Of a stretch of DNA of 64,000 nt, positions 1,302 through 16,818 are shown piece after piece (position 1 is the first letter of the stretch; every line of letters begins with the position of its first letter). The position numbers and the translations under genes were made by a program. The notes below the pieces were generated by a model. That model saw only the letters and a list, made by a program, of their open reading frames with translations, was not told where the DNA came from and searched no databases. The stretch is from NCBI RefSeq assembly GCF_058153355.1, contig NZ_CM177019.1. The stretch is one strand, 5' to 3'.

Positions 1302-1311
1302 GGGGGGGGGG
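1302..1311. repeat. G10 homopolymer tract in an intergenic region
   Basis: direct read: a followed by ten g at 1302..1311. Confidence 0.9.
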
Positions 1312-1790: not shown

Positions 1791-1886
1791 GACAAAATCA
1801 TTAGTGGGTTGTATTTTAATGTTAATGATTTTGTCATTATTAATTTTAGATTTGTTGCTTTTTACCAAAGTTTTGTTTATTCATAG

Positions 1887-2606
1887 CTACCATTTTAAAT
1901 AATTACAAGCAGCAGTGTCTGCTCTATATGAACAGTTTATTTTAGCTGCTTCGTAGCCGATTAAACCTATAATGGGGTTATTGTTCTCATTGTCGTTGTA
2001 AATATCTTTTAGGAGGTTATCTCCTTGTTGGCTGGCCCAGCTCTGAGAGTCATTATTAAAATCATAATAATATTTTGCTGAGAGCAGTTGGACGGGTTGC
2101 TCGGTATCTGGCAAAACGCTCCAGATAATAATTTGCTTAACTCTGATGATTTCATTTTCAGCCTGTTTTTTAGCTGCGCTTAAACCTTCTTTCAATTTTG
2201 AATTGTCTGGTTCTTTCTTAAAACAATAAGGATCACTTCCATTGGCGACACAGGCCTCATTGTATTGGTCTATAGAGCGCTTTGCGCTTTCTATCAAACT
2301 GGCGTAGCCATTAGCAAACCGAGTCATTTCCCTTTTCCAAATGCTATTTGTTGCAGATGCCGACATATCACACGTATAAGTAACAGTCTGGTGTCCTTGT
2401 TCATCGGTTCCATCTTCCCATTTAAACAATTCACATCGCTGGCGATGCTCTAATGCAGTCCCAAGGGTTCTGGTTGAGTCTATATTTGATAATACCTGTG
2501 ATTTTATAATTTCCTGATTGTCTGAAGCGGATACATTATCACAGCCAGTAAGAATAAATATTGAGCAACTGATAAACAATCCAATAAGTACTTTTCTTTT
2601 AGACAT
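1887..2606 (-). CDS. hypothetical lipoprotein
   Basis: 239-aa ORF; N-terminal signal peptide with lipobox LTGC. Confidence 0.5.
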   Translation of the reverse strand: MSKRKVLIGLFISCSIFILTGCDNVSASDNQEIIKSQVLSNIDSTRTLGTALEHRQRCELFKWEDGTDEQGHQTVTYTCDMSASATNSIWKREMTRFANGYASLIESAKRSIDQYNEACVANGSDPYCFKKEPDNSKLKEGLSAAKKQAENEIIRVKQIIIWSVLPDTEQPVQLLSAKYYYDFNNDSQSWASQQGDNLLKDIYNDNENNNPIIGLIGYEAAKINCSYRADTAACNYLKW

Positions 2607-2682
2607 GAGTGATTCCTTTTTAAGTTTTGGTAAATTACGTGACCTTGACTAAATCAGGTCTGATAAGATGGTTAATCTGGTT

Positions 2683-3153
2683 TTAATGAATGAAGGGCAT
2701 ATGTTCGATGCCTGTATAAAGTAAATTGCTCCTGGCATTGATCGTATTGGTCAGACAGGCGTGACTTTCAATTTCTTTACCCATAGAGTTCATGACACTG
2801 ATATGAGCATCAGGCTGACCTTTGTACTCTTCATAAGTGATAGCCATAGCGCCTTCTATATTCTCTCCAGTTCCTCGCAATACAAAGACTCTATTGTCAG
2901 TAACATCATTTGCGGTGATGGACTGCTGCGCTTGACCTGAATGAGTATTCAGTTTGATGACTACGCTGCCTTTATCAGAACTTTTATCCTGTGATTTATA
3001 GGTAATATATACGATGTCTTTTTTATGACTCAGTGTCATAACCCCACCAGTATCAAGTGTGCATTTTAGATCCCAGTTTTCCTGACCAGCCAGTGAAGAA
3101 CTGCTTAACAACATTAGTATATAAAAAGATGCTTTTATTTTTACAATATTCAT
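2683..3153 (-). CDS. hypothetical secreted protein
   Basis: 156-aa ORF with hydrophobic N-terminal signal sequence ending ...SSLAGQ. Confidence 0.45.
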   Translation of the reverse strand: MNIVKIKASFYILMLLSSSSLAGQENWDLKCTLDTGGVMTLSHKKDIVYITYKSQDKSSDKGSVVIKLNTHSGQAQQSITANDVTDNRVFVLRGTGENIEGAMAITYEEYKGQPDAHISVMNSMGKEIESHACLTNTINARSNLLYTGIEHMPFIH

Positions 3154-3189
3154 ATAGCCTGCTGATTAAGTGGGGCGACTATTCTTAAT

Positions 3190-3945
3190 TTATGAAGCTG
3201 CTCCTCTATTAATACTCTTTATCTGATGAGCAATATTTTTATATGAACGATGATTAGCCGAGTTCATTACATCATGGATATAAGGAAAATGAGGTAAGGA
3301 TGAGATGAACCGCTCACCCGCAGTGAGATGGCAGATGTCATCTCTGCGCACAAAACTCTCTGTGGTTAACTTCACCTGGATGATGCTGGCTACTGGAATA
3401 ACCCTGATTATTTCGGCCTGACAGGCAACTAAATACCATTTTCCTTCCGTGTGAATAAGACGATAAGGTTCAAAGACCGCGTGAGAATCATTGCCAGTCA
3501 GCAAATGAATACAGTTTTGTTGACAGATCGCCTGTATCAGCCGCTGAAAACATTCTGATGATACAACCGAGTCAGAATGCGATGAAGACCAGATAAGGCA
3601 GGGAGAATACGACGTTTCACCCGTGAGGTAATGCATCAACCTGCGATCAGGTGACGGAAATAATTGAGAGATTCCGGTGTTACGCATAAACGCCAGAACA
3701 TCTAATGAACTGTCTGTAAAGCGTTTCCCGTCAAGTCGCCAGCGCCCATTCTCACTAACGATATTAAGGTGGAGTAATCGCTGGTGGAAATCTCGCTGTA
3801 GCGTTCGTTCAGATACTCCAAACTCTTCTGCCAGGTTTTTTAGGTCAAGAGACTCTCCTGACAGTAACCGGCTAATAATCTGTGTCAGCCTGATGGCAAA
3901 CCGGTCATAACGAGTCGATGTAGTGTTCATCAGAAAAACGTCCAT
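3190..3945 (-). CDS. WYL-domain transcriptional regulator (YfjR/BrxR-like); start codon uncertain (ORF extends to 4068)
   Basis: motif EPYRLIHTEGKWYLVACQ (WYL signature) plus N-terminal HTH-like region LKNLAEEFGVSERTLQRD. Confidence 0.55.
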   Translation of the reverse strand: MDVFLMNTTSTRYDRFAIRLTQIISRLLSGESLDLKNLAEEFGVSERTLQRDFHQRLLHLNIVSENGRWRLDGKRFTDSSLDVLAFMRNTGISQLFPSPDRRLMHYLTGETSYSPCLIWSSSHSDSVVSSECFQRLIQAICQQNCIHLLTGNDSHAVFEPYRLIHTEGKWYLVACQAEIIRVIPVASIIQVKLTTESFVRRDDICHLTAGERFISSLPHFPYIHDVMNSANHRSYKNIAHQIKSINRGAAS

Positions 3946-4166
3946 GGATAACTTACTGTTTTTAATGATGTTATTATGAATCATGAGCACGACAGGATAT
4001 GTCGTAGTAACGGGAGGAATAGAGAAAAAACGTCCAGACAAATAACTAAGTAATATCCTGATTAACAATAACTATTTTTTCCAGAGACAGAACTGAAGCA
4101 GGTCGCGACATATCCTGTCGCTGAAACTCATAATTTTCAGGTGGCTTAACTCAGTGGGTAGATGTA

Positions 4167-5051
4167 TTAGAAAAACCAGTGCCATATTGCGGTAGCTGCA
4201 TTCTCCAGCCCTTCTCTGAGCACTCCCAACCCGTTGCGTATCATGTTGGGGAGAGGTATGGCCTCCAGAATCCTGCTCAATAATTCTCCCAACAAATCCG
4301 CGAAATCCTTTCGGGCCTTCGTCTCCGATTCTTTGGTGCGATGTTCTTTCCTGATCTGGCGAAAGACGCCACTGGTAGCCTCTGGTGGCAGGGCAAAAAT
4401 CATTGTTTCAACTATACGAGACATGTTGTAACCGGTTTTTGCTGAAACAGCATGCACCGGGTAAGGGGTAAAGAACTGGCGGGAAACGGCAGCACTTCTC
4501 GCTGTGAGCGTCATGAGTTGCTTCACTGAAGGAGATCCTTTTTCACGATCCCATTCCAGTGATGGCTCGGCTTTGTCAGCCTGGTTGATAACAAAAACAA
4601 TGCTGTCTGTCGATACGCCACAATCCAGTAGAAAACGGTGGAATTCTTCGTCTGTGGTACAGGCGCGGTCATCGGCTTTCATCACCCAGAGAATGAGATC
4701 CAGCTTCGGTAACTGTTCCTGATACATCTGGCGATATATCTCATCATGCTTCAGCGATTCACCTGCGCCCGGCAGATCGATCAGCGTCAGGCTGCGTCCT
4801 CCAGCGTTCAGGGTAAAATGCAAAGGTTTACGTGTGCAGCCTTCTGCATGGCTGACTGGGCTGAGAGGATGTTCAAAAAGAGCATTGCAAAGCGAGGATT
4901 TTCCGGCACCTGTTTTGCCCATGATGCCAATCACGGGTTCGTAATGAATACTCTGGCGTATATGCTCCAGAACCAAATCGGAGATATGTTCAGGAAGAAT
5001 GGATAAAGGTTGCTTCAGGACATTAATGCCCCGTTCAAAGGAATCAGACAT
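4167..5051 (-). CDS. YfjP/YkfA-family GTPase (P-loop GTP-binding protein)
   Basis: G1 motif GKTGAGKSS, DLPG (G3-like) and NQADK (G4 NKxD-like); GGAGG RBS upstream of the ATG at 5051; ORF extends to 5105. Confidence 0.6.
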   Translation of the reverse strand: MSDSFERGINVLKQPLSILPEHISDLVLEHIRQSIHYEPVIGIMGKTGAGKSSLCNALFEHPLSPVSHAEGCTRKPLHFTLNAGGRSLTLIDLPGAGESLKHDEIYRQMYQEQLPKLDLILWVMKADDRACTTDEEFHRFLLDCGVSTDSIVFVINQADKAEPSLEWDREKGSPSVKQLMTLTARSAAVSRQFFTPYPVHAVSAKTGYNMSRIVETMIFALPPEATSGVFRQIRKEHRTKESETKARKDFADLLGELLSRILEAIPLPNMIRNGLGVLREGLENAATAIWHWFF

Positions 5052-5215
5052 GTAGCCTCCGGAATGAAAAAATTCGATACAGCAACTTCGCTGCAATGTA
5101 TTCATTGCGGTAATACAGGTCTGTTTTTTTTTGCATTCGAATTACGGGGAGGAATGTGGTTTTGTGGAGCAAACCGGGGGCATTGCCCCGGTTCACTGAT
5201 ATGGTGAAATGATAT

Positions 5216-5455
5216 CTAACGTCGCATTACCCATTCATTCAGTTCTGACTCCAGCCAGCCAACGGATTGCCTTCCCAAGCGTTTTTGTTTTGGAAATGTT
5301 CCATCGTAGCGTGGCGATTTTGGATTAAGCCAGTCGTATATGGTTGAGCGTGAAATTCCCATTTTTTTCATTACATCTTTTAGCCTCAAGATCCTCGGTG
5401 AATCAGGAATATTTGCGTAACTGGATGTATGTAAGGAGGGAGGGTTCTGTAACAT
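5216..5455 (-). CDS. alpA: AlpA-family phage regulatory protein (HTH)
   Basis: 79-aa ORF; ISRSTIYDWLNPKSPRYDGTFPK matches the AlpA signature of P4/CP4-57-type elements. Confidence 0.65.
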   Translation of the reverse strand: MLQNPPSLHTSSYANIPDSPRILRLKDVMKKMGISRSTIYDWLNPKSPRYDGTFPKQKRLGRQSVGWLESELNEWVMRR

Positions 5456-5568
5456 CTAGGCTTCCTTAGTATGAGTTTGTTCGGGTGGGTCCATATTGCC
5501 AACCACGCTGGGGCTGTCATACACTGGAAGTAACATTAAAATAAAATCACTTTAGGGATTTACTTTTC

Positions 5569-6450
5569 ATGAAGGATGTGGGTGCGAATTTTTTTGATGA
5601 TTTCTATCTGCAAGTTTGTACCGCTTGTGAGGACAAACTTCTTGAGCTGGAATGGAAACTTGAAGTCGAAAAAAAGGAGAGCAACCAAGATGTTCTGCGC
5701 ACTTACAGGCAAAGAGCCTATGATAAAATTGAAGAATTTAAAATTATTGAGTATTCAAAAATACAATGTCAATATTTTGTAGATATGACTAATAGCGACA
5801 ATATACGCTACTCACAAGAGTTTATAAATGTTGATGGAATAATGGTTGAGAAACCTTTTATTTATAAGGAAACATATGCAGAATATCGGATTGAAATTCG
5901 AGGAAAAATGGACGGGTATAAACTGACAGGATTAGCAAGACTATATGATGCACATTATGAATATATATATCTATCTATGGCTTTAGAAGATTTTTACTGG
6001 GCGCAGTTCCAATATTCATTGGGCAATAAAAAAGAAAGTTGTAAGTTTCTTCTTGATGCTTATTCTTATATGAATGTCTGTATTTCGCGAGATGATAACC
6101 GAGACTCACCGAGTTTTCATCGATTAAGAAGTGGTTTTGATAAAGTATGCAGAAGAGCGCGCTCAAGCGCTGGAGGGAAAAATAAACTTGCAGAACTTGA
6201 ATATATTAAAGATACAGTTGTTATCTTACTTGAAGATATTCCTTCACATAGCGACTGGAAAAATAAACGTCAACTTCTTGAATATTTAATGCCCTATATT
6301 TGTAATAATGATAAAAAGGTCAATCCAGATAAATGGATAAATGATACAGGCGATAGAGAGGAAACTATCCGCCGCAGACTTAATAAATGGTTTACAGGTG
6401 ATCTAAAAGTAGAGATTGATAAAGTCCTAAAGAACAATACTAACAATTAA
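5569..6450 (+). CDS. hypothetical protein, AT-rich orphan
   Basis: 293-aa ORF, strongly AT-rich codon usage, transcribed divergently from alpA; no recognisable motif. Confidence 0.5.
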   Translation: MKDVGANFFDDFYLQVCTACEDKLLELEWKLEVEKKESNQDVLRTYRQRAYDKIEEFKIIEYSKIQCQYFVDMTNSDNIRYSQEFINVDGIMVEKPFIYKETYAEYRIEIRGKMDGYKLTGLARLYDAHYEYIYLSMALEDFYWAQFQYSLGNKKESCKFLLDAYSYMNVCISRDDNRDSPSFHRLRSGFDKVCRRARSSAGGKNKLAELEYIKDTVVILLEDIPSHSDWKNKRQLLEYLMPYICNNDKKVNPDKWINDTGDREETIRRRLNKWFTGDLKVEIDKVLKNNTNN

Positions 6451-6681
6451 TATTATTATGGTTTTGATATTTTTATGTCTATCAGGAGGGCTACTATACG
6501 ATCAGTCTTGATGGGTTTGAAATTACATCGCTATGAAAATACCCCACATAAATCTATTGGAAAACCAATCATTGTTAATATGACTATTGTTATGATGACT
6601 GTTGTAATTGTGTCTACACGAGAAATTGAATGAAATTTATAGGTTTGAAGTAGCCTTAGTGGTAGTCGAAAATAATTATGT

Positions 6682-6713
6682 AAATGGGCCTGCATTTTGC
6701 AAGAAGGCCCATT
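6682..6713. terminator. hairpin between convergent genes (aaatgggcc ... ggcccattt)
   Basis: 9-bp inverted repeat read directly. Confidence 0.3.
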
Positions 6714-6717
6714 TACG

Positions 6718-7047
6718 TCAGGGGTAAATTATATATCCCATAATCGCACAGATTAACCGGTAATCACTCACGTAGAAGATTTCCGGATTCTCAGTGCTTT
6801 GTTCACCGATAAAGAAGACTTGAGCTCTCTCTTTAGCTTTTTTATTTACTGCTTCTTTTGCTTCTTCCTGCACAGTTTCAAGCTCATTCAAAAGCATAGT
6901 CTTTTTGGCTTTTGACCAGTCTCCCCACTCAATGTGTAGTTTATAGCTACGCGAGGGCTTAAACTTACCAGATTCGTCTTTTGCCCATTCTCCCGAGAGC
7001 GGAATGACAATTCGGTTTTCGTCTTGCTCAAATTTCTGCCATAACAA
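6718..7047 (-). CDS. hypothetical protein (109 aa)
   Basis: ORF co-directional with and downstream of the STAND gene; no motif recognised. Confidence 0.4.
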   Translation of the reverse strand: MLWQKFEQDENRIVIPLSGEWAKDESGKFKPSRSYKLHIEWGDWSKAKKTMLLNELETVQEEAKEAVNKKAKERAQVFFIGEQSTENPEIFYVSDYRLICAIMGYIIYP

Positions 7048-7094
7048 CTGCGAATAAAAAACTCGGCGCTCAGGGTAGGGTTGAACCGGGTCTT

Positions 7095-7628
7095 TTAGTT
7101 TTTTAACACGGTCATGTAAGTATCGGCATTAATACCTGGGATAATTAATGACATACCACGGTCATACGGGAAGCGAATAAATGCCCTACAAATCTGGCGA
7201 ATAGCATTAACCGGGCGGCGGGATTGCCGCGCTGGAGCATTTCCCTCGCTGGATGCCGATGTTGTAGAACGTATTGGATTGGGTTTGTTGTTGTTACCAG
7301 TAGTGTCAGGATCAACAACGGGTCGATTTTCAATCAGTTTTAATCCTGCAGGCATCAAACCTGGTGCGCTATCTAACATGCGGCGGACGCTTTTCTTCTG
7401 CCCCTGTTTAACCACTGTGCTTTCTGCATCAGCATCGCAATTAATGTGCTCTTTTCCAGGCATTTTATTAAACGAAGGTCTTTTCTTACTTCCTTTTTGC
7501 CAAGCAGAAGGATACATCTCAATCCCACATCCCCAGCATACGTAACTGTTCGTATCTACAACATCAAGTAACCAAAGATCTTCTGCCTCAATAATCTCAC
7601 TGGTATATTTATCACGTGCAGATTCCAT
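7095..7628 (-). CDS. hypothetical protein (177 aa) with a CxxC motif
   Basis: good RBS (aaaggagaaatc then ATG); starts 45 bp after the STAND gene stop; contains C-W-G-C. Confidence 0.5.
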   Translation of the reverse strand: MESARDKYTSEIIEAEDLWLLDVVDTNSYVCWGCGIEMYPSAWQKGSKKRPSFNKMPGKEHINCDADAESTVVKQGQKKSVRRMLDSAPGLMPAGLKLIENRPVVDPDTTGNNNKPNPIRSTTSASSEGNAPARQSRRPVNAIRQICRAFIRFPYDRGMSLIIPGINADTYMTVLKN

Positions 7629-7673
7629 GATTTCTCCTTTAAACAGAATTCCTGTGAAGGCGGCTACTAGCCT

Positions 7674-10600
7674 TCATTCAAACCGTTGTTCCAATGCCTC
7701 ATCTTCCAATCGCTCGCGTTCTTTTTCCTTTTCAACCCAGTTAGTCAGTTTTTTATAAACAGCTCTAGCCGACTTAGAAATGTCTGCACGCTCGTGGGTG
7801 ACCAACCGGCCTATCGCTTCAACCCTGGGTTGCATCACGTTCGCACGACTACCGGACCATGATGAAGGTGCTACGTGTTCGGCAAAGATCTCAAGGACGG
7901 CTCGTGGCTCGGGTGAGGCTTCTAGAAATCTCAGAGCATCATCCTGCAAGCAAATAGGACTTTGCTCCCCGTCTTTTGACCATAGATTAATACCTGAAGC
8001 GACTGAAGCCCAAACCTGAGGGTCTTTAGTGGTCCCGCACCATTCAATCAAAATATCTACATCGATTTTCGCAATAGGAGACTGATGTGAATCATCATGA
8101 TTGATGAAATGCAGCCGCCTCTGTTGTTGATCCTCCGTACCATCAAAAATGCGACTGAGAAATTCTTTTGGCATCCATGCAGCGGTGATACCGATAGCGT
8201 CTTCGAAAGAAAAAATGTAGCCAAAATGCTCATCAACAACAGCAAAGATTGTATTCAGCCATTCTAGCTTTTCAGCCTCGTTGCCATCGAAGCGCAATGT
8301 GGCATCGATAACACGTTCCATTGCATAATCCAGATATCCGCCGAGATCGTTGTGATCTCTTTGGAACCTCTGGATTGCAGCGGATAGTCCAATTGTTCGT
8401 AGCGCAAGACCTAGTGTATCCGTAGCATCTCCTTTATCAGGTAGTTTCATACTCAATGCTTCCAATACTACTTCATCACCATTCGGTTTACTCAGCAGCC
8501 TTTGAGCAAGCTCGAGAACCCTGCTTTCTGGCAAATTAGAGAATTGCTCACCCCACAGAATTGCCCCATACATATGGGGCCGTATGTCAGAGTCATCCAG
8601 AAGCGACATGCAACGATCCAGATCGATTTCAGTAAACTCCTGCCAAGGATGTAGGTTGACTAATTCGAATCGAAGTTCGGAATGTTGTGCGCACTGATCG
8701 AGCAGTTCCTGCGCTAATGCTTTATCGATAGAATTCGTCTCTTCTATGAAACCTCGAATAACAGAAAAATCACTTTGAGATTTATGCTGTAGATTCATTT
8801 GAGTGATAAGTTTCTGCCAATAAACTCGTAGGTCAGGTGCTCCTTTAGCTAAGCCTTTACCGAATTCGACGCGATAGGGCATCCCATCTCGTAAGAATAA
8901 ATTAGGGCCTAACTCATCAAGTTCATGCGTGGATACTGCAAAGTCTTGCCCTAACTGGAACGCTTTTGCGTTAAGTATTTCCTTTATTTTTATGAATTTG
9001 TTAGGCCCCTCACGCTCAAAATCGGCATTCAGCGCCCAAAAATCACGCCCCTTACTGAGTACATAAGCCATAACTGCCGGAACCAAGTCATTAGGCTCCA
9101 ATTCTCGTTCCAATGTCACAAGTCCTTCCGGCAAAGGAGCTAAATCTTCGTTGTCATTTCTTTTGGTATGGGAAAAGTAAATTGTTGAGCGGACCGCTTT
9201 CCAGCCTTCACCCCAAGGACGATGGGCATGTAATTTGCGAGCCGCATCAATTAATTTTGACCTCATTCCTTCCTGACGCCAAATCCAGCGAAATTTATTA
9301 GCTAAGATCAGCCGAGCATCATCTTCAAGTTCGGGAACTCTTGAAGTTGCTAATCTCACCACAATGTCGATGAAGGTGATTAGCCACTCAACAAGCTCAT
9401 CGTAGCTGGGTCGAAATCCATAATCTCTTGGCCGAGCACCAAACTCATTAATCCCGAATCCTGTCCACGGTGGTCCGCCGAGAGCAGTTTCAAGCATTTC
9501 GAGCCCCAGCCTTCTACGTCCGGCCATACTTGAACCAATGCATTCATCCATGACCGCAACACGTTGTTCTAAAGAGGCATGGGTACCGGATAGATAAGGT
9601 TGGAAAAACCTCTTTATCTTATTTCGAGCCGAATCATAATTATTGCTCGCGCTTTCCTGATCTGCGATACGGATTAAGAGCTTAATGCATCGTTCAAAGT
9701 ATTTCGATTCATATGCAAGTAACTGCAACAATTTGATAATTGCTGTTCGTTGTGGGTTGTAGCGTGATTTAAAATGCTCAAAATTAGACGTAACAAGTGT
9801 TTCTTCAATCCGCTCAAGCAAAGCTCCCGGGGCGACTGGAGCGACATAATTCAGAATGCGTGTCGAAACATCATCTAGGTCTATTATTTTTCCAAGCAGC
9901 CCTTCGGGCTGTAACCAAGCTTCAACAATCTCTTTAGCCACAGCATGGCTGTGCAATAGTCCCAACCTGTGCGCGAACGACATCAATAATCGTTGTCGAT
10001 CCGGAGCTTCAAAGGTCGTCCTAAGTTGATCAATCGGAATACTATTAAGTGCAGATGCTGCCAACTTGTTAGCAATGGCATGGGGAAGGATGGCTCTCCA
10101 GTGGGATCTTTTCTGAACAACGTGACGTTCCATCAACTTCGTAACAGTTTTGAATAACTGGATTTTGGGATACCCAGAGAGCGCACCCAATATTTCCAGT
10201 TCATCGGTAGCTGCATCTGAACTAGATATTGAGAACGAATACACCAGTGACAATATTTCAGCTTGCTCCCGTAAATGGCCGTCGGGATGATTACGTTGTT
10301 CAAACAAGCGATTAAACAACTGCGCATCTGAAAGTAGGGCTAAACTCTCACCTTCCTCCACTCTTTCCGCTATAGCCAAAGCCACTCTTGCATTCCCATC
10401 TGCGAACTTTGCAATCCGACGGGCATTATTCTGACCAATAGAAGGGAAGCGACGGATAAGAAGTTGCTCTGCCACCTCTGGACCATCTGTCTCAATGTGG
10501 ATGACCTCAGTTGTCTGTGGTTTGTCATCCCTAATGTCGTACTCGATCGTGATGAGACTTACTTCTTTCCCTGCGGCTGATACTTTGCTGGCAAGCGAAG

Positions 10601-11525
10601 CATGGAGTTCTGATGGGCAATTATCAAGGATCATAATTGCTCGTCGGCCTTCAGCGAGCAGGTTATCAAGCATTGCTGTAGCCGACGGTACTGGCTCATA
10701 GCCAGTATCAACATAAATAGCTACTGTCCGGTCAAGCGCATCTGTTCCAACAGTATCATCAAAGAGCGCCTGAACGATTCGAGTCTTCCCAACACCAGAC
10801 AATCCTGTAATACGAACAGCCTTATTCGTCGAACGGATCAGTGCTCGCATTGGGTTAATTGCTTCATCAATTTTGAGTTTTTGCCCCTTTCCCGATGGTA
10901 AAGTAATGGTTACGCTTGGGGCTGAGATTAAAGTGTCTGTAACACCTTGTGGTGGATTGCTCCAGGCTCCGTAGGGTTGCCAACCGGAATACCCTTGCCC
11001 AAGCTTTGCTTTTACCCACAGCATGACTGATGGATGTTGGCGCAACCATTGGATGAGTTTGGAGCGGTCGTAGAAATCAAGATGAAGATAACTTTCGTTA
11101 GGATCATCTTTTACTGCATCTCTCATCGCTTTGAGACGATTCTTCTTTCCTGACGGCGAGCAATCATCACCCAGGCTGACAATGATGTAACTGCCTTGCT
11201 TTCTGGCTTGTTCAGAAATGATGGGAGAAAGTGCTTTTCCGGTGCCAATTTCCCTCTCGATTGCAGCCTTAGGCATCTTATGTTTCTTTGCCTGAAAGAC
11301 CGTATCAGGTCTTACAAGAAAGCCTGCTTTCAGTTGATCAACTGGAACCTGAACATGGATGTCAATTCCTCCGTCAGGGGCTGTAATTGAACCAGACCAA
11401 TTTACACATGCTGGGCTATGGCCGTGCATTGCCACTTCAGCTTCTGCTAGCCGAGCGATCAGCTCTTCCAACTGGATATCGGAGAGCCGAAGTAATTCGT
11501 CCTTTTCAATGTCAAAGATTGCCAC
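7674..11525 (-). CDS. Mrr-like (PD-(D/E)xK) nuclease / STAND P-loop NTPase / long helical C-terminal domain protein; Avs-like antiphage candidate
   Basis: 1283-aa ORF; N-terminal DGGID (residues 51-55) ... QAK (78-80) resembles the Mrr catalytic core; Walker A GLSGVGKT encoded at 10782..10805; Walker B-like AIMILDN; GNARVALAIA resembles the GxP motif of STAND NTPases. Confidence 0.7.
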   Translation of the reverse strand: MAIFDIEKDELLRLSDIQLEELIARLAEAEVAMHGHSPACVNWSGSITAPDGGIDIHVQVPVDQLKAGFLVRPDTVFQAKKHKMPKAAIEREIGTGKALSPIISEQARKQGSYIIVSLGDDCSPSGKKNRLKAMRDAVKDDPNESYLHLDFYDRSKLIQWLRQHPSVMLWVKAKLGQGYSGWQPYGAWSNPPQGVTDTLISAPSVTITLPSGKGQKLKIDEAINPMRALIRSTNKAVRITGLSGVGKTRIVQALFDDTVGTDALDRTVAIYVDTGYEPVPSATAMLDNLLAEGRRAIMILDNCPSELHASLASKVSAAGKEVSLITIEYDIRDDKPQTTEVIHIETDGPEVAEQLLIRRFPSIGQNNARRIAKFADGNARVALAIAERVEEGESLALLSDAQLFNRLFEQRNHPDGHLREQAEILSLVYSFSISSSDAATDELEILGALSGYPKIQLFKTVTKLMERHVVQKRSHWRAILPHAIANKLAASALNSIPIDQLRTTFEAPDRQRLLMSFAHRLGLLHSHAVAKEIVEAWLQPEGLLGKIIDLDDVSTRILNYVAPVAPGALLERIEETLVTSNFEHFKSRYNPQRTAIIKLLQLLAYESKYFERCIKLLIRIADQESASNNYDSARNKIKRFFQPYLSGTHASLEQRVAVMDECIGSSMAGRRRLGLEMLETALGGPPWTGFGINEFGARPRDYGFRPSYDELVEWLITFIDIVVRLATSRVPELEDDARLILANKFRWIWRQEGMRSKLIDAARKLHAHRPWGEGWKAVRSTIYFSHTKRNDNEDLAPLPEGLVTLERELEPNDLVPAVMAYVLSKGRDFWALNADFEREGPNKFIKIKEILNAKAFQLGQDFAVSTHELDELGPNLFLRDGMPYRVEFGKGLAKGAPDLRVYWQKLITQMNLQHKSQSDFSVIRGFIEETNSIDKALAQELLDQCAQHSELRFELVNLHPWQEFTEIDLDRCMSLLDDSDIRPHMYGAILWGEQFSNLPESRVLELAQRLLSKPNGDEVVLEALSMKLPDKGDATDTLGLALRTIGLSAAIQRFQRDHNDLGGYLDYAMERVIDATLRFDGNEAEKLEWLNTIFAVVDEHFGYIFSFEDAIGITAAWMPKEFLSRIFDGTEDQQQRRLHFINHDDSHQSPIAKIDVDILIEWCGTTKDPQVWASVASGINLWSKDGEQSPICLQDDALRFLEASPEPRAVLEIFAEHVAPSSWSGSRANVMQPRVEAIGRLVTHERADISKSARAVYKKLTNWVEKEKERERLEDEALEQRFE

Positions 11526-11972
11526 ATCCTAACCCTATTAAAGATACTGCGACTATATAAAAAGTTACCCTTATTCTAACCAATGACAGAAGGAATGTCC
11601 CTTAAACCGTTGCAATTAAAACCATTCTCATCAAGTAGTTAAGATTTTCTTACTCAGCACTATGATGTTGATCTTACCCACTTTGCGTCAAACTATTAGT
11701 ATGTATAAAGCACATTGCTGGCCTGATTAAGAAATGGATTGATATGTGAGTTAATGTCATTTATGAGCTTAAAGCTATTTTTAATCCCCTTTGCTTTACA
11801 ACTCTTTATATTATTTCATTCTTATTTACACCAATATTTATTGGTATGATGGTTTAATTTAATTCATTTTTGTTTTTTTGTTTGAAGCACATTGAAAGGA
11901 TATTATTATTTTCTCCTTCATGTTGAAAACAATTTAATTGGGCGGGTTTGGTTCGATATTATTAATATCTTT

Positions 11973-12000
11973 TTCAAAGAAATTATTTATATGGTATAAT
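11973..12000 (+). promoter_or_regulatory. putative sigma70 promoter with extended -10 (ttcaaa ... tggtataat)
   Basis: -35-like ttcaaa at 11973..11978, 16-bp spacer, TGnTATAAT at 11992..12000, within a long AT-rich tract upstream of the nuclease-helicase gene. Confidence 0.3.
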
Positions 12001-12032
12001 GCAATAAAATCGTATTGAGGTAAGAGGGTACT

Positions 12033-12227
12033 ATGAGTGGATCTTTTGATTTCTTAGCTGGTTCTTTGGCTCTTGAAAATAAACCTTTCCATATGCAGGT
12101 TGCAGAGCTAATAAAAAATAAGTTTCGTCATTGTGAGGGATATATTGGCTATAAGCTTGCAACTTTGGGACGGGCATCGGACTCCGATGTTCCAGATTTT
12201 ATCATTATACAAAAGAACATGGCATAA
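12033..12227 (+). pseudogene. 5' portion of nuclease-helicase gene (NERD/PD-(D/E)xK-like N-terminus), separated from the helicase frame by an apparent -1 frameshift
   Basis: 64-aa ORF with RBS gaggtaagaggg; ends ...SDVPDFIIIQKNMA; adding one A to the A4 run at 12211..12214 gives DFIIIQKEHGIILVDMVESK, continuous with the helicase ORF. Confidence 0.45.
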
Positions 12228-12238
12228 TTTTAGTTGAC

Positions 12239-14248
12239 ATGGTTGAAAGTAAGGTTTCTCGTGCGGATGAGGTGCAGGGGAATGAGGTTTGGTATTATGA
12301 GCATGGAGGTTCGAGTGTAGCAAGGAATTTTATTGTCGAGTTGTATGAGGAGGAGGTAAGAAGTAGATTAAAAAACGATGCAAATTTCTACAACAGAAGA
12401 AAAAAAACATGCACAGTTCCGATTACTAGCGCTGTTATTTTTTGTAAAAATAATAATAGTGAGATAGACAATTTCTATCAAGAGTATGCTGATTATGAAA
12501 GTTCAGCTATTGAATATGGCGAGATTGAGAATTGGTTAGATAGCGTTGAAGAAGGGTTCAATTGCGATTCTAAAGTTCTGGGGCGAATTTTTTCATTGTT
12601 AGAGGGGACGTTTATATATGAAAATAAAAAAATTCTCGATGAAGAACCACCCCTTAACACTGTGAATGATTATATCAAAAAATCTCTAAATATAACATTT
12701 AATCAAGATCACTCACAACGTATTGCTTCAATGCAACTAACCCCGGGCCCTCAGAGAATTCGTGGCTTGGCCGGAACAGGTAAGACGATAGTTCTTTCAT
12801 TAAAAGCTGCGATAACGCACAAAAAATTTCCAGATTATAAAATATTATATTTATTTAATACACAAAGCTTATATCAAAATGTGCAGAGTTCAATCGCCAG
12901 ATACTATACTTTAGAAGCCAAAAAAGCGCCAGATTTTGAATCGAATCTAAATGTCTTCCATGCGTGGGGTGGTAGGCAGAAACCGGGACTGTATTCATAT
13001 ATTTGCCAACAGTATGGATTAACTCCACTAACATTAGGAGATGTACGTGGAGCAAGTGATGCCTTAGCTGTCATATATGCAGAACTTCTCAAAAAAATCG
13101 GTGGTGATATAAAGCCTGAATATGATCTTATTTTAATAGATGAAGCCCAAGATTTTCCTAAAGAGTTGTTTGAAGTGGTCTTTAAACTAGCAAAGGGCAA
13201 ACCTCATGAGAAAAGGATCGTTTGGGCGTATGATGAATTCCAGTCATTGAAAGACACTCAAATTAAAGGTCCATCTGAGCTATTTGGTTTGGCCAAAGAT
13301 GGCACCCCAAATATGAGTGATGATGTTTTAGATGGATTCTATCCTGGTGACATAAAAAAAGATATTGTTTTATCCAATTGCTATAGGACTCCTCGTCCTG
13401 CTCTTATGACTGCTCACGGAGTAGCATTAGGACTTTATACTAATAAGCCGAATGAAATGTTTTATAACCATGATGAATGGAAAGCTATTGGCTATAAAGT
13501 TTTAAATCCTCAGACAAAAATCATTGCAAAAGGCAATGATGTGCAAATAGAGAGACCTAATGAAAATAGTCTAAATCTGTTGGAAGGAATTATGACAGAG
13601 CAGGGTAAGAGGGCCCTTAACCTTATCCAGACTAAGGTGGAAAATGATCGGGAAAGTCAATATGAATATATTGCAAGTAACATCAAACGTTTAATTGATG
13701 AGGAAAATGTCTCGCCTGAAGAAATAGTCATAATTAATTTGAAGTCCTCTAGTAACAAAGATGAGATGCTACGCATTCAATTCATCTTAAATAATTACGG
13801 TATTCACTCTGTAATTCCCGGTTACGTTGAAAGCTCAGATGTCTTTAAACCCAAGGGGTTCGTTACAATCACAACCCCTTTCAGGGCTAAAGGGAATGAA
13901 GCTAATATTGTATTTATTTTAAATAGCCAGTTAGTTGTTAATGATTTTTCATTAAGGATGCGTAATGCATTTTTTGTAGCAGTAACTCGAACAAGAGGAT
14001 GGTGTTATATTGTTGGTTATGGAGAAAAAATGCAAATGCTTGTGGACGAAATTTCAGGAATCAAAAGAGATTTCCCTATATTTAATTTCATTTGTCCTGA
14101 CCCTGATGATGTCAAAGCACGAAAAAGTTATCTCCACAAATCAGACTCTGAGATCAATGAGATGCAAAGAGTACTGGATTTAGTTAATAATAACGAAGAG
14201 TTAAGACGACTGCTACAGGAGCAGCTCATTGATAAGAAAGGAGATTAA
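12239..14248 (+). CDS. SF1 helicase (UvrD/RecD-like), probable C-terminal body of a nuclease-helicase fusion
   Basis: 669-aa ORF; Walker A GLAGTGKT at 12764..12787; Walker B LILIDEAQDF; FVAVTRTRGW motif VI-like. Confidence 0.7.
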   Translation: MVESKVSRADEVQGNEVWYYEHGGSSVARNFIVELYEEEVRSRLKNDANFYNRRKKTCTVPITSAVIFCKNNNSEIDNFYQEYADYESSAIEYGEIENWLDSVEEGFNCDSKVLGRIFSLLEGTFIYENKKILDEEPPLNTVNDYIKKSLNITFNQDHSQRIASMQLTPGPQRIRGLAGTGKTIVLSLKAAITHKKFPDYKILYLFNTQSLYQNVQSSIARYYTLEAKKAPDFESNLNVFHAWGGRQKPGLYSYICQQYGLTPLTLGDVRGASDALAVIYAELLKKIGGDIKPEYDLILIDEAQDFPKELFEVVFKLAKGKPHEKRIVWAYDEFQSLKDTQIKGPSELFGLAKDGTPNMSDDVLDGFYPGDIKKDIVLSNCYRTPRPALMTAHGVALGLYTNKPNEMFYNHDEWKAIGYKVLNPQTKIIAKGNDVQIERPNENSLNLLEGIMTEQGKRALNLIQTKVENDRESQYEYIASNIKRLIDEENVSPEEIVIINLKSSSNKDEMLRIQFILNNYGIHSVIPGYVESSDVFKPKGFVTITTPFRAKGNEANIVFILNSQLVVNDFSLRMRNAFFVAVTRTRGWCYIVGYGEKMQMLVDEISGIKRDFPIFNFICPDPDDVKARKSYLHKSDSEINEMQRVLDLVNNNEELRRLLQEQLIDKKGD

Positions 14249-14250
14249 AA

Positions 14251-14922
14251 TTGAATTTCTCATTAGTGCAGCAAAGCTTAAACCATGTCGAAGCACTTTT
14301 AAAACCTGTAACTCAACAAAAATTAATAGAGTTTAAAGAAAGAGAGAAGGTCATAAGTTGGACAAATAGGAAGCCAGGAATTTACAATGAAGTCTACTAT
14401 CCTATTGAATATCAATGTGTAATTGATGCAAGGCAGTACTCATTATTGCTTCGAGATGGCGATTTTTTTCAATTTTTTTATGAGTTTGATGCGAAAACTG
14501 GCAATCTGAAGAAAGCTAAGTTGGCTTTCTATCCCTCACCAATTGATTGTAGAAATTCGTTGGATGATCTCAATGAAGCAGCTGAATTTGCTTTTGATCA
14601 TAATGAAGAACTCTATAATCATCTTGATAATTGGATTTCGCTATTGGAAATAAAAAACTATTTTCCAGCAAATACATCTCAAGTTAGATTTGATTATGAT
14701 AGTACGGTTACTACACATGAGAAAGCACATCTGCAGTTTAGTAGTGTAAATAAACTTAGACTTCCGGCTGACTTTTTTCCTTTGCCATATGCATTTGTAT
14801 TAATGGTTTCTGATCTTATTAATGGATGCTCAAAGGTAGATGCTAGACATATAAGCTTTACTAAGAGAAACAGCCTAAGATCAAATGTTTCTAATAGAAT
14901 CATAACCTTGAAATCACAGTGA
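14251..14922 (+). CDS. hypothetical protein, helicase-coupled partner (223 aa)
   Basis: TTG start 3 bp after the helicase stop, AGGAG RBS 7 nt upstream; AT-rich; no motif recognised. Confidence 0.5.
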   Translation: MNFSLVQQSLNHVEALLKPVTQQKLIEFKEREKVISWTNRKPGIYNEVYYPIEYQCVIDARQYSLLLRDGDFFQFFYEFDAKTGNLKKAKLAFYPSPIDCRNSLDDLNEAAEFAFDHNEELYNHLDNWISLLEIKNYFPANTSQVRFDYDSTVTTHEKAHLQFSSVNKLRLPADFFPLPYAFVLMVSDLINGCSKVDARHISFTKRNSLRSNVSNRIITLKSQ

Positions 14923-14928
14923 ATTAAC

Positions 14929-16614: not shown

Positions 16615-16818
16615 TGCCGGGTTTCCATAGTTTTAGGCACCTCAAAAACAATAAAGCTTTATGAGGTGCCTAACAAGGTGCCTAAAAGGTTCGGATTTAA
16701 TTAGTTCTCTTCGGACTTCGCGGGACAAATTGAGGGCACAAAAAAGCCCGCAGGGCTTGCGCCGTGCGGACTCTTAGGACTTCATCGGATGACTCTGGTA
16801 ATCACCGATGGAGAATTT

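What the first reader, a model, noticed from the sequence alone, without database searches (positions are those of the whole stretch)
3190..5455. CP4-57-like regulatory module (WYL regulator, YfjP-like GTPase, AlpA) embedded in the defence cargo
Seen: three consecutive minus-strand genes with a WYL signature (KWYLVACQ), a GTPase P-loop (GKTGAGKSS) and an AlpA HTH. Established: homologues of alpA, yfjP and yfjR occur in the K-12 CP4-57 element at ssrA, and WYL-domain regulators (for example BrxR) control defence islands. Inference: these may regulate excision or expression of the neighbouring defence genes. alpA lies ~10 kb from the integrase rather than adjacent to it.
Basis: partly seen in the sequence, partly recalled or inferred. 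Interest (0 to 1): 0.45.

Follow-up and report, generated by a model that had tools for sequence, protein, structure and literature searches.

The report
Backbone regulator genes of ssrA island
The three genes are real relatives of E. coli K-12 alpA, yfjP and yfjR, but they are conserved backbone genes next to a swappable defence-gene slot, and nothing indicates that they regulate the defence genes.

Summary
Observation confirmed. Three consecutive minus-strand genes encode an AlpA-family HTH (5216-5455), a YfjP-family GTPase (true start 5051) and a YfjR-family wHTH-WYL regulator (true start 3930). They are 64%, 42% and 39% identical to K-12 CP4-57 AlpA, YfjP and YfjR.

Interpretation partly supported. 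The block is not embedded in the cargo. It is conserved backbone bordering a variable slot between the integrase and yfjH-like/alpA. E. coli islands with a 96-99.7% identical block carry at least four different slot contents.

In 80 species, 61 of the 76 loci with enough flank link the WYL gene to the GTPase. The collinear alpA-GTPase-WYL order is confined to this sub-lineage.

The WYL gene has two conserved 13-bp sites, G(A/T)CA-N3-CCTGTC, at about -185 and -75. The proximal site lies exactly 12 nt before a conserved -10, with no -35. That is the geometry of PafBC/DriD activator promoters, not of BrxR. No such site occurs near the defence genes, which agrees with published gSELEX data (YfjR's only target is its own operon).

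The GTPase has its own promoter plus a conserved leader terminator.

Verdict: an ordinary known gene set. The by-products are testable predictions for the uncharacterised YfjR and YfjP families.

The parts
5216..5455 (-). alpA: AlpA-family wHTH protein, 79 aa; putative excisionase / int regulator
   Evidence: Pfam Phage_AlpA 3.4e-21. 64% identical to K-12 AlpA. PHROG 'excisionase and transcriptional regulator'.
5168..5197 (-). GC-rich hairpin directly after alpA; probable (weak) alpA terminator
   Evidence: The 71-nt fold has MFE -20.8 kcal/mol, z = -3.8. The hairpin is kept in four genera, with a compensatory GGAGG/CCTCC change in L022.
5110..5115 (-). -10 hexamer (TATTAC) of the GTPase gene's own promoter; conserved CAGA(C/T) element in the spacer just upstream
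   Evidence: The promoter block is conserved across lineages. The K-12 equivalent, TTGAAA-15-TATCAT, binds RpoD holoenzyme in gSELEX (PMC3946193).
5068..5095 (-). Leader hairpin plus T-run (intrinsic-terminator-like), starting 41 nt before the GTPase start codon
   Evidence: Found by the terminator scan. All 56 unique own-leader sequences gave a candidate under a lenient detector that also fires on 90% of shuffled leaders. At a strict score the rate is 62% versus 4% in shuffles. Leader MFE is -19.4 versus -10.8 kcal/mol. Most start at -33 to -56; four weak outliers lie at -62 to -106.
4167..5051 (-). YfjP/YeeP/YkfA-family GTPase, 294 aa (real start M19; SD GGAGG at 5056-5060)
   Evidence: MMR_HSR1 8.3e-17. 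42% identical to YfjP. G motifs are invariant. AF2 pLDDT 87. The best full-length fold matches are IRG GTPases (TM about 0.55); Era/EngB match on the G domain.
4106..4120 (.). Distal predicted YfjR-family operator (CGACAGGATATGTCG on the gene strand), about -189 from the WYL start
   Evidence: It forms a perfect 15-nt inverted pair with 3990-4004. Sites at the same position are present in 65 of 80 species loci.
3990..4004 (.). Proximal predicted operator (CGACATATCCTGTCG), about -73 from the WYL start; it occupies the place of a -35 element
   Evidence: It is followed by exactly 12 nt and then a -10 hexamer in 48 of 48 unique promoters. The best -35 match is 3 of 6 or fewer in all of them.
3973..3978 (-). 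-10 hexamer (CATAAT) of the WYL-gene promoter
   Evidence: Its distance from the proximal site is fixed. 47 of 48 unique promoters match TATAAT at 4 of 6 or more positions, with A2 and T6.
3190..3930 (-). YfjR-family wHTH-WYL regulator, 246 aa (real start M47); no WCX domain
   Evidence: Pfam WYL and HTH_11. PADLOC WYL 5.9e-18. 38.6% identical to YfjR. AF2 pLDDT 80.7. The top 26 Foldseek hits are PafBC, CapW, DriD and BrxR.
1887..3153 (-). Two genes downstream of the WYL gene, probably in its operon: a 156-aa protein with a signal peptide (2683-3153) and a 239-aa lipoprotein with lipobox LTGC (1887-2606)
   Evidence: 36-nt gap on the same strand. No Pfam, PHROG or NCBIfam match. Other lineages carry different small exported proteins (YfjT, IrmA, DUF4234) at this position.
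5569..6450 (+). yfjH-like gene, divergent from alpA; marks the inner border of the cargo slot
   Evidence: Weak similarity to K-12 YfjH (E 3e-5), which has the same divergent position next to alpA.
6718..14922 (.). Variable defence cargo: PD-Lambda-4 B (6718-7628, frameshifted), PD-Lambda-4 A (7674-11525), Helicase+DUF2290 (12033-14922, helicase frameshifted)
   Evidence: PADLOC full-length matches. The slot content differs among islands that share the same backbone. Frameshifts.
15373..16614 (-). IntA-type tyrosine integrase next to ssrA; the presumed partner of AlpA
   Evidence: 85% identical to K-12 IntA. NCBIfam PRK09692, 935 bits.
16634..16684 (.). Three copies of TAGGCACC (two direct, one inverted) just upstream of int; candidate AlpA or Int-arm binding sites
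   Evidence: These are the only copies in the window. K-12 has TAGGCCCA three times at the same positions.

Best explanation
The three genes are conserved backbone genes of a CP4-57 / SRL-PAI-type integrative island at ssrA. They border a variable cargo slot (int - cargo - yfjH-like/alpA) rather than lying inside it. They are best read as three separately controlled units, not one defence-regulating module.

1. AlpA. It is the island's trans-acting excision factor (recombination directionality factor and/or int activator). It works on the int/att region 10 kb away, which still carries its own triple 8-bp repeats. This step is inferred from homologues.

2. The YfjP-family GTPase. It is an intact G protein whose G domain is flanked by helical extensions; the whole-chain fold is closest to IRG GTPases. 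It has its own sigma-70 promoter, followed by an intrinsic-terminator-like hairpin in the 5' leader. Expression therefore probably depends on conditional read-through. Its function is unknown.

3. The YfjR-family wHTH-WYL protein. It is a single-target autoregulator.
- A dimer is predicted to bind two 13-bp G(A/T)CA-N3-CCTGTC sites, about 116 bp apart, upstream of its own gene.
- The proximal site sits where a -35 element would be, exactly 12 nt from a conserved -10.
- This is the layout of PafBC- and DriD-dependent promoters. The protein therefore most likely acts as a ligand-dependent activator of its own operon, here the WYL gene plus two exported-protein genes. Single-stranded DNA is the ligand of all characterised relatives.
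- A classical autorepressor remains possible.

What is shown: homology, synteny statistics, motif conservation and promoter geometry. What is inferred: DNA binding, the sign of regulation, the ligand, and the roles of AlpA and the GTPase.
For: Homology and domains.

Backbone versus cargo:
- The block is 96-99.7% identical in 9 complete E. coli genomes.
- The int-to-yfjH slot in those genomes holds PD-Lambda-4 plus Helicase/DUF2290; PD-Lambda-4 plus a 3.7-kb gene; Eco57I-type RM plus an ABC-three-component system; or almost nothing.
- Other genera show int-[RM/CBASS]-alpA.

Linkage: 61 of 76 informative species loci link the WYL gene to the GTPase, in three architectures.

Operator:
- A perfect 15-nt inverted pair lies at 3990-4004 and 4106-4120. 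These are the only exact matches in 64 kb; the single 1-mismatch hit lies far outside the island at 47595.
- 65 of 80 loci have two or more sites at about -185 and -75.
- 48 of 48 unique promoters have a -10-type hexamer exactly 12 nt after CCTGTC, and none has a -35 match above 3 of 6.

Literature on related promoters:
- PafBC motif tGTCgg(N10)tA(N3)T, at promoters lacking a -35 (PMC8635444).
- DriD sites lie at the -35 position, at a fixed distance from the -10 (PMC13004042).
- The BrxR operator instead lies downstream of the -10 (PMC9122601).

WYL protein fold: the top 26 PDB hits are PafBC, CapW, DriD and BrxR.

K-12 experimental data:
- gSELEX gives YfjR's single target as its own operon, and AlpA's as the intA operon (PMC8249747).
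- No YfjR ChIP-exo peaks were found in standard growth, which is compatible with ligand-dependent binding (PMC8464067).

No operator-like site or promoter occurs in the defence region.

GTPase promoter and leader terminator.

AlpA homologue as excisionase: PMC5148205.
Against: - No experiment was done on this locus. DNA binding to the predicted sites is inferred only from conservation.
- A repressor site overlapping the -35 region would produce the same footprint. BrxR and CapW, both relatives, are repressors.
- The family lacks the WCX domain of all characterised wHTH-WYL regulators, so its mechanism may differ.
- Weak or non-canonical WYL-protein sites in the cargo promoters cannot be excluded by a motif scan.
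- Indirect effects on defence genes, for example through excision or copy number, remain possible.
- 15 of 76 loci have no GTPase nearby, and some GTPase loci have no WYL gene. The pair is therefore not obligatory.
- The 80 loci are related sequences, not independent samples.
Confidence: 0.7

Rival explanations
1. First reader's model. The WYL regulator, with AlpA and the GTPase, is a BrxR/CapW-like controller of the neighbouring defence cargo (PD-Lambda-4, Helicase+DUF2290).
For: wHTH-WYL regulators such as BrxR and CapW do control defence islands (PMC9122601). The protein's fold matches them. It lies within 4-9 kb of defence genes.
Against: - The module stays constant while the cargo varies, and in some islands the slot is almost empty.
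- The regulator is transcribed away from the cargo and is separated from it by three genes.
- The operator motif is found only at its own promoter.
- The family has no WCX domain.
- The operator position differs from BrxR's.
- gSELEX lists it as a single-target factor.
Confidence: 0.08
2. The YfjR-family protein is a plain autorepressor. It occludes its own promoter, possibly by looping between the two sites, and is released by a ligand as in CapW and BrxR. It is not an activator.
For: The proximal site overlaps the RNA-polymerase binding region. Two sites about 108-121 bp apart suit looping. CapW and BrxR are repressors, and CapW is released by ssDNA.
Against: - All 48 unique promoters lack a usable -35, with no evident extended -10, so a derepressed promoter would be weak.
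- The GTC-to-(-10) spacing of 12 nt equals that of the PafBC activator motif.
- In a large clade only the promoter-proximal half-site (CCTGTC) is invariant, while the upstream half degenerates to TCCA. This asymmetry fits an activator better than a symmetric repressor.
- The RpoD-holoenzyme gSELEX lists promoters for yfjP and yfjX, but that paper does not mention yfjR.
Confidence: 0.35
3. The GTPase and the WYL protein form a two-component sensor-effector system of their own, for example a cryptic anti-phage or anti-defence module. The WYL protein would sense ssDNA and the IRG-like GTPase would act as effector.
For: - The two genes are linked in 61 of 76 species loci. In 7 of these the WYL gene directly precedes and overlaps the GTPase gene, as in an operon.
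- The full-length fold is closest to immunity-related GTPases.
- There are weak PADLOC hits to the bacterial dynamin-like LeoA/LeoBC.
Against: - No defence-system model matches the pair.
- In the commonest layouts the GTPase lies upstream of the WYL promoter and has its own promoter and leader, so it is not under the predicted operator.
- DUF932 is often inserted between the two genes.
- Either gene occurs without the other.
- The fold similarity is moderate (TM 0.55, rmsd about 6.5 A).
Confidence: 0.12
4. alpA-GTPase-WYL is a single operon devoted to excision control, transcribed from the alpA promoter.
For: The three genes are collinear and on the same strand in this window and in three other genera (L022, L023, L036).
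Against: - The collinear order is confined to this sub-lineage. Only 5 of the 43 loci that contain alpA have it on the WYL strand, and only 3 of those 5 have it directly upstream of the GTPase.
- Two hairpin/terminator-like elements and a separate conserved promoter lie between alpA and the GTPase.
- A 236-bp spacer with its own promoter and operators precedes the WYL gene.
Confidence: 0.07

Closest known systems
E. coli K-12 CP4-57 cryptic element at ssrA (intA, yfjH, alpA, ... yfjP, yfjQ, yfjR, ypjK-yfjS-yfjT)
   Same: - Same integration site, with an integrase 85% identical.
- A yfjH-like/alpA divergent pair.
- Homologues of alpA (64%), yfjP (42%) and yfjR (39%).
- The yfjR homologue is followed by small exported or lipoprotein genes.
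- Two conserved operator-like sites upstream of yfjR, and a promoter plus leader terminator upstream of yfjP.
   Different: - Gene order. In K-12, alpA is next to int, and the defence genes (abpAB, rnlAB) lie further in. yfjQ (DUF932) separates yfjP from yfjR.
- In the window the cargo sits between int and yfjH-like/alpA, and alpA-GTPase-WYL are contiguous on one strand.
- The genes downstream of the regulator are unrelated in sequence.
BrxR / CapW family (wHTH-WYL-WCX repressors of BREX, CBASS and other defence islands)
   Same: An N-terminal winged HTH plus a WYL domain, supported by fold matches with probability 1.0. Both bind, or are predicted to bind, inverted repeats upstream of their own gene. 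Both lie on mobile islands that carry defence genes.
   Different: - About 50 aa shorter, with no WCX domain in the model.
- Not placed at the head of a defence operon.
- The operator sits at the -35 position, not downstream of the -10.
- No second operator near the defence genes.
- The regulator is conserved independently of the cargo.
PafBC (mycobacteria) and DriD (Caulobacter): ssDNA-activated WYL transcription activators
   Same: - wHTH-WYL fold; these are the top fold hits.
- A profile hit to the PafBC WYL domain, E 3e-7.
- Target promoters have a conserved -10 and no -35.
- The regulator site lies at a fixed distance: GTC-N12-(-10) here, versus tGTCgg(N10)tA(N3)T for PafBC.
   Different: - A small protein of 229-246 aa, presumably a homodimer, without WCX.
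- A predicted single-target autoregulator on a mobile island, not a DNA-damage regulon master.
- Ligand and activation are untested.
Int-proximal defence hotspots of integrative elements (P4-like satellites psu-int hotspot; E. coli tmRNA hotspot #9)
   Same: A variable slot next to the integrase holding different anti-phage systems, including Helicase+DUF2290, in otherwise conserved elements at ssrA (PMC9122126; PMC10121019).
   Different: - This element is not a P4-like satellite. No psu, sid or delta genes or cos site were seen.
- Its backbone is the CP4-57/SRL-PAI set: Gp2/YfjJ, YfjI, GTPase, DUF932, RadC, DUF987, CbeA/CbtA.
- Its slot is bounded by int and yfjH-like/alpA.
Pseudomonas aeruginosa AlpA (21Q-like processive antiterminator)
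   Same: The name. Its targets also have a promoter with a factor-binding element in the spacer and a terminator just before the first ORF, which resembles the GTPase leader seen here.
   Different: No detectable sequence relationship. The window's AlpA is a 79-aa Phage_AlpA wHTH, whereas the P. aeruginosa protein is much larger, with a C-terminal HTH around residues 128-142. A PDB sequence search with the window AlpA returns only a 73-aa 'AlpA family phage regulatory protein' at E 0.25. The shared name must not be read as a shared mechanism.

Membership tests
Phage_AlpA (PF05930) / CP4-57 AlpA | Profile match to the AlpA-family winged HTH | tested here: met
   Pfam Phage_AlpA i-Evalue 3.4e-21, covering model positions 2-51 of 51.
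Phage_AlpA (PF05930) / CP4-57 AlpA | Sequence homology to K-12 AlpA, and location in an integrase-bearing island at ssrA | tested here: met
   64% identity over 59 aa. An IntA-type integrase lies next to the tmRNA gene.
Phage_AlpA (PF05930) / CP4-57 AlpA | Promotes int expression and/or excision | not testable with these tools
   Known only from homologues (PMC8249747; PMC5148205).
YfjP/YeeP/YkfA island GTPases | Intact P-loop GTPase domain with G1-G4 motifs | tested here: met
   MMR_HSR1 8.3e-17. GKTGAGKSS, CTR, DLPGxGE and NQAD(K) are invariant or nearly so in 34 sequences.
YfjP/YeeP/YkfA island GTPases | Full-length homology to YfjP, and residence in the CP4-like backbone | tested here: met
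   42% identity over 284 aa, E 5e-73. The same backbone neighbours occur in Serratia, Erwinia, Citrobacter and Providencia.
wHTH-WYL regulators, YfjR subfamily | N-terminal winged HTH plus WYL domain | tested here: met
   Pfam HTH_11 6.7e-5 and WYL 5.7e-5. PADLOC WYL 5.9e-18. AF2 model and Foldseek. W165, Y166 and L167 are conserved.
wHTH-WYL regulators, YfjR subfamily | Homology to K-12 YfjR over the full length | tested here: met
   38.6% identity over 223 aa, E 2e-43.
BrxR/CapW defence-island regulators | Three-domain wHTH-WYL-WCX architecture (about 270-300 aa) | tested here: not met
   The family is 226-250 aa long. The model shows only helices (197-203, 206-242) after the WYL beta domain. 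BrxR-Efer is 295 aa.
BrxR/CapW defence-island regulators | Heads, or is embedded in, the defence operon it regulates, with operators at that operon's promoter(s) | tested here: not met
   The downstream genes encode exported proteins. Across 80 species loci the recognisable downstream genes are island backbone (DUF932, ArdB, RadC, CbtA), although defence families were not screened there. No operator-like site occurs in the cargo.
BrxR/CapW defence-island regulators | Represses defence-gene transcription | not testable with these tools
   Needs reporter or RNA measurements.
PafBC/DriD-type WYL activators | Binding site replaces the -35 element, at a fixed distance from a canonical -10 | tested here: met
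   CCTGTC-N12-TAnAAT in 48 of 48 unique promoters, with a best -35 match of 3 of 6 or fewer. Compare PMC8635444 and PMC13004042. This is sequence geometry only; binding was not shown.
PafBC/DriD-type WYL activators | ssDNA binding to the WYL domain switches on DNA binding or activation | not testable with these tools
   Inferred from relatives only.

The most novel reading that the evidence does not exclude
YfjR-family proteins are a minimal, WCX-less class of WYL transcription activators in Enterobacterales islands. They would use a PafBC/DriD-like -35-replacement mechanism: half-site CCTGTC, 12 nt, then the -10. In response to single-stranded DNA they would switch on a variable set of exported-protein genes. 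The co-inherited IRG-like GTPase would be held behind a leader terminator as a second, conditionally expressed arm of the same response.
Probability: 0.25. Interest if true: 0.55.

Novelty: new member of a known kind. Interest (0 to 1): 0.33.

Why it matters
As a finding, it corrects a tempting over-reading. A WYL regulator near defence genes is not automatically a BrxR-type defence regulator. Here the regulator belongs to the island backbone and appears to control only its own operon. This matters for anyone who uses WYL genes as flags for regulated defence islands.

The follow-up also gives concrete, cheap tests for three K-12 y-genes that have stayed uncharacterised for decades:
- a predicted YfjR operator and an activator-type promoter;
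- a conserved leader terminator in front of yfjP, ykfA and yeeP;
- an int-proximal cargo slot bounded by yfjH/alpA, which can be mined for new defence systems.

Tried and rejected
1. AlpA as antiterminator of the GTPase leader. The leader layout (promoter, conserved spacer element, terminator before the ORF) resembles P. aeruginosa AlpA targets. However, the P. aeruginosa protein is a large 21Q-like factor with no detectable similarity to the 79-aa Phage_AlpA protein here. I dropped the homology argument. The read-through factor remains unknown.

2. Deciding whether the TAGGCACC repeats upstream of int are AlpA sites or Int arm sites. Both AlpA (64% identical) and the Int N-terminal arm-binding region (the most divergent part of the integrase) differ between the window and K-12, where the repeats are TAGGCCCA. 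With only two variants this cannot be resolved.

3. Looking for the WYL operator or a CTGTC-N11-13-(-10) promoter elsewhere in the window. There were 8 loose hits against 6.6 +/- 2.4 expected by chance. Only the WYL promoter has the full motif. A weak hit at 5514 (+), facing the yfjH-like gene, is not above chance.

4. Family assignment of the two genes downstream of the WYL gene. Pfam, NCBIfam and PHROGs gave nothing, and BLAST against YfjS, YfjT and IrmA-family neighbours from other islands gave nothing.

5. Rfam scan of 1-18000. Only tmRNA was found, so the GTPase leader is not a described RNA family.

6. Whether the distal operator drives a divergent promoter. There is no conserved -10 at a fixed distance across lineages.


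Full report
**What is there**

The window holds an integrative island at the tmRNA gene. ssrA lies at 16819-17181 (-) and an IntA-type integrase at 15373-16614 (-).

- AlpA: Pfam Phage_AlpA 3.4e-21.
- GTPase: MMR_HSR1 8.3e-17, with the P-loop GKTGAGKSS.
- Regulator: an HTH_11 plus WYL protein. Pfam gives 6.7e-5 and 5.7e-5, and the PADLOC WYL model gives 5.9e-18.

BLASTP against K-12 CP4-57 gives 64% identity to AlpA, 42% to YfjP (E 5e-73) and 38.6% to YfjR (E 2e-43). The integrase is 85% identical to IntA.

The mechanical ORFs overrun the real starts.
- The GTPase begins at ATG 5051, with GGAGG 5 nt upstream (294 aa).
- The WYL protein begins at ATG 3930 (246 aa).
- Both starts agree with RefSeq annotation of near-identical loci and with the family alignments.

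**Backbone, not cargo**

PADLOC identifies the genes between the integrase and alpA as two systems:
- PD-Lambda-4: A at 7674-11525, B at 6718-7628.
- Helicase+DUF2290: 12033-14922.

A megablast of 3100-5600 against 5,426 complete E. coli genomes finds the whole block in 9 genomes at 96-99.7% identity, always at ssrA. The stretch between the integrase and the yfjH-like/alpA pair differs among them:

| Strain(s) | Slot content |
|---|---|
| FEX669 | same cargo as the window |
| R32_14_1F | PD-Lambda-4 plus a different 3.7-kb gene |
| A3, PapM-32-1 | Eco57I-type enzyme plus an ABC-three-component system |
| ES5, 1504D004 | almost nothing |

About 149 further genomes keep only alpA and the 5' part of the GTPase. 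In the example examined (GE3) the GTPase is cut by an IS3-family element; several other listed hits also show an IS element at the break.

Related islands in Providencia show int-RM-alpA and RM+CBASS-alpA. The 10-kb gap between alpA and int is therefore the normal int-cargo-alpA layout of this element family. The three genes mark the inner edge of a swappable slot.

This fits published descriptions of int-proximal defence hotspots and of the tmRNA locus as an E. coli defence hotspot (PMC9122126; PMC10121019). The remaining backbone (YfjI, Gp2/YfjJ, DUF932, RadC, DUF987, CbeA/CbtA) is the set known from CP4-57 and the Shigella SRL island.

**How tightly are the three genes linked?**

I fetched 80 loci from 80 species of Enterobacterales that encode a YfjR relative. 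I then scored the neighbouring genes with HMMs built here.

| Arrangement | Loci |
|---|---|
| GTPase directly upstream of WYL, same strand | 35 |
| GTPase-DUF932-WYL (the K-12 order) | 18 |
| GTPase upstream of WYL across a longer gap | 1 |
| WYL directly preceding and overlapping the GTPase | 7 |
| No GTPase within reach | 15 |
| Too little flank to tell | 4 |

From the GTPase side, two of five lineages examined lack a WYL gene.

alpA lies on the opposite strand, paired with Gp2/YfjJ, in 38 of the 43 loci that contain it. Only Intestinirhabdus, Photorhabdus tasmaniensis and Chimaeribacter share the window's collinear alpA-GTPase-WYL order, and they do so at 87-94% protein identity.

The GTPase-WYL pair is therefore a frequent but not obligatory backbone association. 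The three-gene 'module' is a feature of one recently spread sub-lineage.

**The WYL regulator and its predicted operator**

The AlphaFold model has mean pLDDT 80.7. It shows a winged HTH (residues 1-66), linker helices, a WYL beta domain (125-192) and then only a long helix. There is no WCX domain.

All 26 PDB matches with E below 1e-3 are wHTH-WYL regulators: PafBC, CapW, DriD and BrxR. A profile search also hits the PafBC WYL domain at 2.9e-7.

The 236-bp spacer upstream of the gene carries a perfect 15-nt inverted pair: CGACAGGATATGTCG at 4106-4120 and its complement at 3990-4004. These are the only exact matches to CGACA-N5-TGTCG in the 64-kb window. The single 1-mismatch hit lies at 47595, far outside the island.

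The same arrangement recurs in K-12, Serratia, Providencia, Klebsiella, Enterobacter and Yersinia. Across the 80 species loci, 65 have two or more sites matching G(A/T)CA-N3-CCTGTC, and 10 have one. The sites lie at about -176 to -203 and -66 to -80 from the start codon, whichever gene lies upstream. Chance would give roughly 0.07 such sites per locus.

A weight matrix built from these sites finds nothing comparable elsewhere in the window, including the defence region, or in six other islands. This agrees with gSELEX work that lists YfjR as a single-target factor acting on its own operon (PMC8249747).

**Promoter geometry**

I aligned 48 unique promoters on the proximal site.
- All 48 have a hexamer with A2 and T6 exactly 12 nt after CCTGTC.
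- 47 of 48 match TATAAT at 4 or more positions. In the window the hexamer is CATAAT at 3973-3978.
- None has a -35 match better than 3 of 6.
- The site occupies the place of the -35 element.

This is the published layout of promoters driven by the WYL activators.
- PafBC: motif tGTCgg(N10)tA(N3)T, which also puts 12 nt between GTC and the -10. There is no -35, and two arginines of one HTH read the GTC (PMC8635444).
- DriD: the site overlaps the -35 position at a fixed distance from the -10 (PMC13004042).
- BrxR, by contrast, binds inverted repeats downstream of the -10 and has a second operator at the defence operon (PMC9122601).

In a large clade the upstream half-site has decayed to TCCA, while the promoter-proximal CCTGTC is invariant. 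This asymmetry fits an activator better than a symmetric repressor.

I therefore favour a ligand-dependent activator, at roughly 55:35 over a plain autorepressor. Single-stranded DNA is the likeliest ligand, because it is the ligand of PafBC, DriD and CapW.

Two K-12 observations are compatible with this reading but prove nothing:
- No YfjR ChIP-exo peaks were found under standard growth (PMC8464067).
- The RpoD-holoenzyme promoter catalogue lists yfjP and yfjX but does not mention yfjR.

**What the regulator would control**

In the window the WYL gene is followed, after 36 nt, by two genes. One encodes a 156-aa protein with a signal peptide; the other, after a further gap, a 239-aa lipoprotein. 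Neither matches any family.

Other lineages carry unrelated small exported proteins at this position: YfjT, IrmA, DUF4234 or unknowns. The DUF932-RadC-CbeA/CbtA block follows them. The position behaves like a second, small variable slot under the regulator's promoter.

**The GTPase**

The family has invariant G1-G4-type motifs and is widespread in Enterobacterales, with 3,638 clusters at E of 1e-10 or better.

The model has pLDDT 87. It shows a G domain flanked by N- and C-terminal helices. The best whole-chain fold matches are the immunity-related GTPases Irga6/IIGP1 and relatives (TM about 0.55). Era and EngB match the G domain alone, and Toc34 and GIMAP also appear.

Upstream there is a conserved promoter block. 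In K-12 it reads TTGAAA-15-TATCAT, found by RpoD gSELEX upstream of both yfjP and ykfA (PMC3946193). In the window the -10 is TATTAC at 5110-5115. A conserved (T)TCAGA motif lies in the spacer.

A hairpin plus T-run follows, mostly starting 33-56 nt before the start codon; four weak outliers lie at -62 to -106.
- All 56 unique own-leader sequences gave a candidate under a lenient detector, but that detector also fires on 90% of shuffled leaders.
- At a strict score the rate is 62% against 4% in shuffles.
- Leader MFE is -19.4 against -10.8 kcal/mol.
- The stems differ in sequence between clades.
- The window copy is at 5078-5095.
- The six leaders without a hairpin are those in which the GTPase follows the WYL gene in an operon.

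The GTPase is thus probably controlled by conditional read-through of a leader terminator. The read-through factor is unknown.

I considered AlpA, by analogy with the P. aeruginosa antiterminator of that name. That protein is a large 21Q-like factor with no detectable similarity to the 79-aa protein here, so the analogy rests only on a shared name.

**AlpA and the integrase**

K-12 AlpA's listed target is the intA operon. A 47%-identical homologue is the excisionase required for excision of the Shewanella ssrA island (PMC5148205).

In the window, alpA is followed by a conserved GC-rich hairpin at 5168-5197, which carries a compensatory change in one genus.

Just upstream of int there are three copies of TAGGCACC. 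These are the only copies in the window. K-12 has TAGGCCCA three times at the same positions. They are good candidates for AlpA or Int-arm sites. Both proteins differ between the two elements, so I cannot say which protein binds them.

**Verdict**

The interpretation needs correcting.
- The block is island backbone beside a cargo slot.
- AlpA plausibly serves excision.
- The WYL protein most likely regulates only its own operon.
- Nothing links the block to expression of the defence genes.

The gene set is known, so this is a new member of a known kind. The added value lies in testable predictions for the uncharacterised YfjR and YfjP families.

Noticed in passing
window 7095-7125 (about 7107), 12190-12225 (about 12208), 3225-3250 (about 3238): There are three single-base contractions in short homopolymer runs, relative to near-identical E. 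coli loci. One frameshifts PD-Lambda-4 B (177 + 109 aa instead of 303). One frameshifts the defence helicase (64 + 669 aa instead of 738). One changes the last 14 or so residues of the WYL protein. They could be real pseudogenisation of both defence systems or homopolymer sequencing errors.
   Followed up: partly
window 16634-16641, 16665-16672, 16677-16684: Three copies of TAGGCACC (two direct, one inverted) lie just upstream of int and occur nowhere else in the window. K-12 has TAGGCCCA three times at the same positions, so all three copies changed together. They are candidate AlpA or Int-arm binding sites.
   Followed up: partly
window 5068-5115; also L003 about 15120-15200 and 50+ other loci: A conserved promoter plus an intrinsic-terminator-like leader hairpin lies in front of YfjP-family GTPase genes across Enterobacterales. 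A conserved (T)TCAGA element sits in the promoter spacer. This suggests regulation by antitermination or attenuation by an unknown factor. It matches no Rfam family.
   Followed up: partly
window 4167-5051: The predicted whole-chain fold of the GTPase is closest to eukaryotic immunity-related GTPases (Irga6/IIGP1, Irgb6, Irgb10; TM about 0.55). The C-terminus ends in a conserved W-x-(F/L)-F tail.
   Followed up: partly
window 1887-3153 and the equivalent positions in L006, L012, L014, L018, L020: The genes directly downstream of YfjR-family regulators differ between lineages, but most encode small exported proteins or lipoproteins (YfjT, IrmA, DUF4234, unknowns). This looks like a second small variable slot under the regulator's promoter.
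   Followed up: partly
window 5-433 and 480-1244: An IS66-family TnpA accessory gene lies at the window's left edge, next to what looks like the C-terminal part of a YfjI (DUF3987) gene (254 aa, versus about 470 aa in intact relatives). The island backbone may therefore be interrupted here. The junction itself was not examined.
   Followed up: partly
window 5168-5197: The hairpin after alpA is conserved in four genera, with a compensatory G-to-A / C-to-U change in Intestinirhabdus. Its U-tract is short, so it may be a leaky terminator.
   Followed up: partly
window 3901-3919: A third, weaker operator-like sequence (CCGGTCATAACGAGTCGAT, matrix score 13.7 versus 18-22 for the two main sites) lies just inside the WYL coding region, 87 bp from the proximal site.
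   Followed up: no
window 18859-20205: An IS4-family transposase gene lies just beyond yfjF on the chromosomal side of ssrA/smpB.
   Followed up: no
L102 and L103 (E. coli ES5, 1504D004), locus 14336-14848: In islands whose cargo slot is nearly empty, the WYL gene itself is annotated as truncated, and an IS3 element has replaced the region further in. Backbone decay therefore accompanies cargo loss.
   Followed up: no
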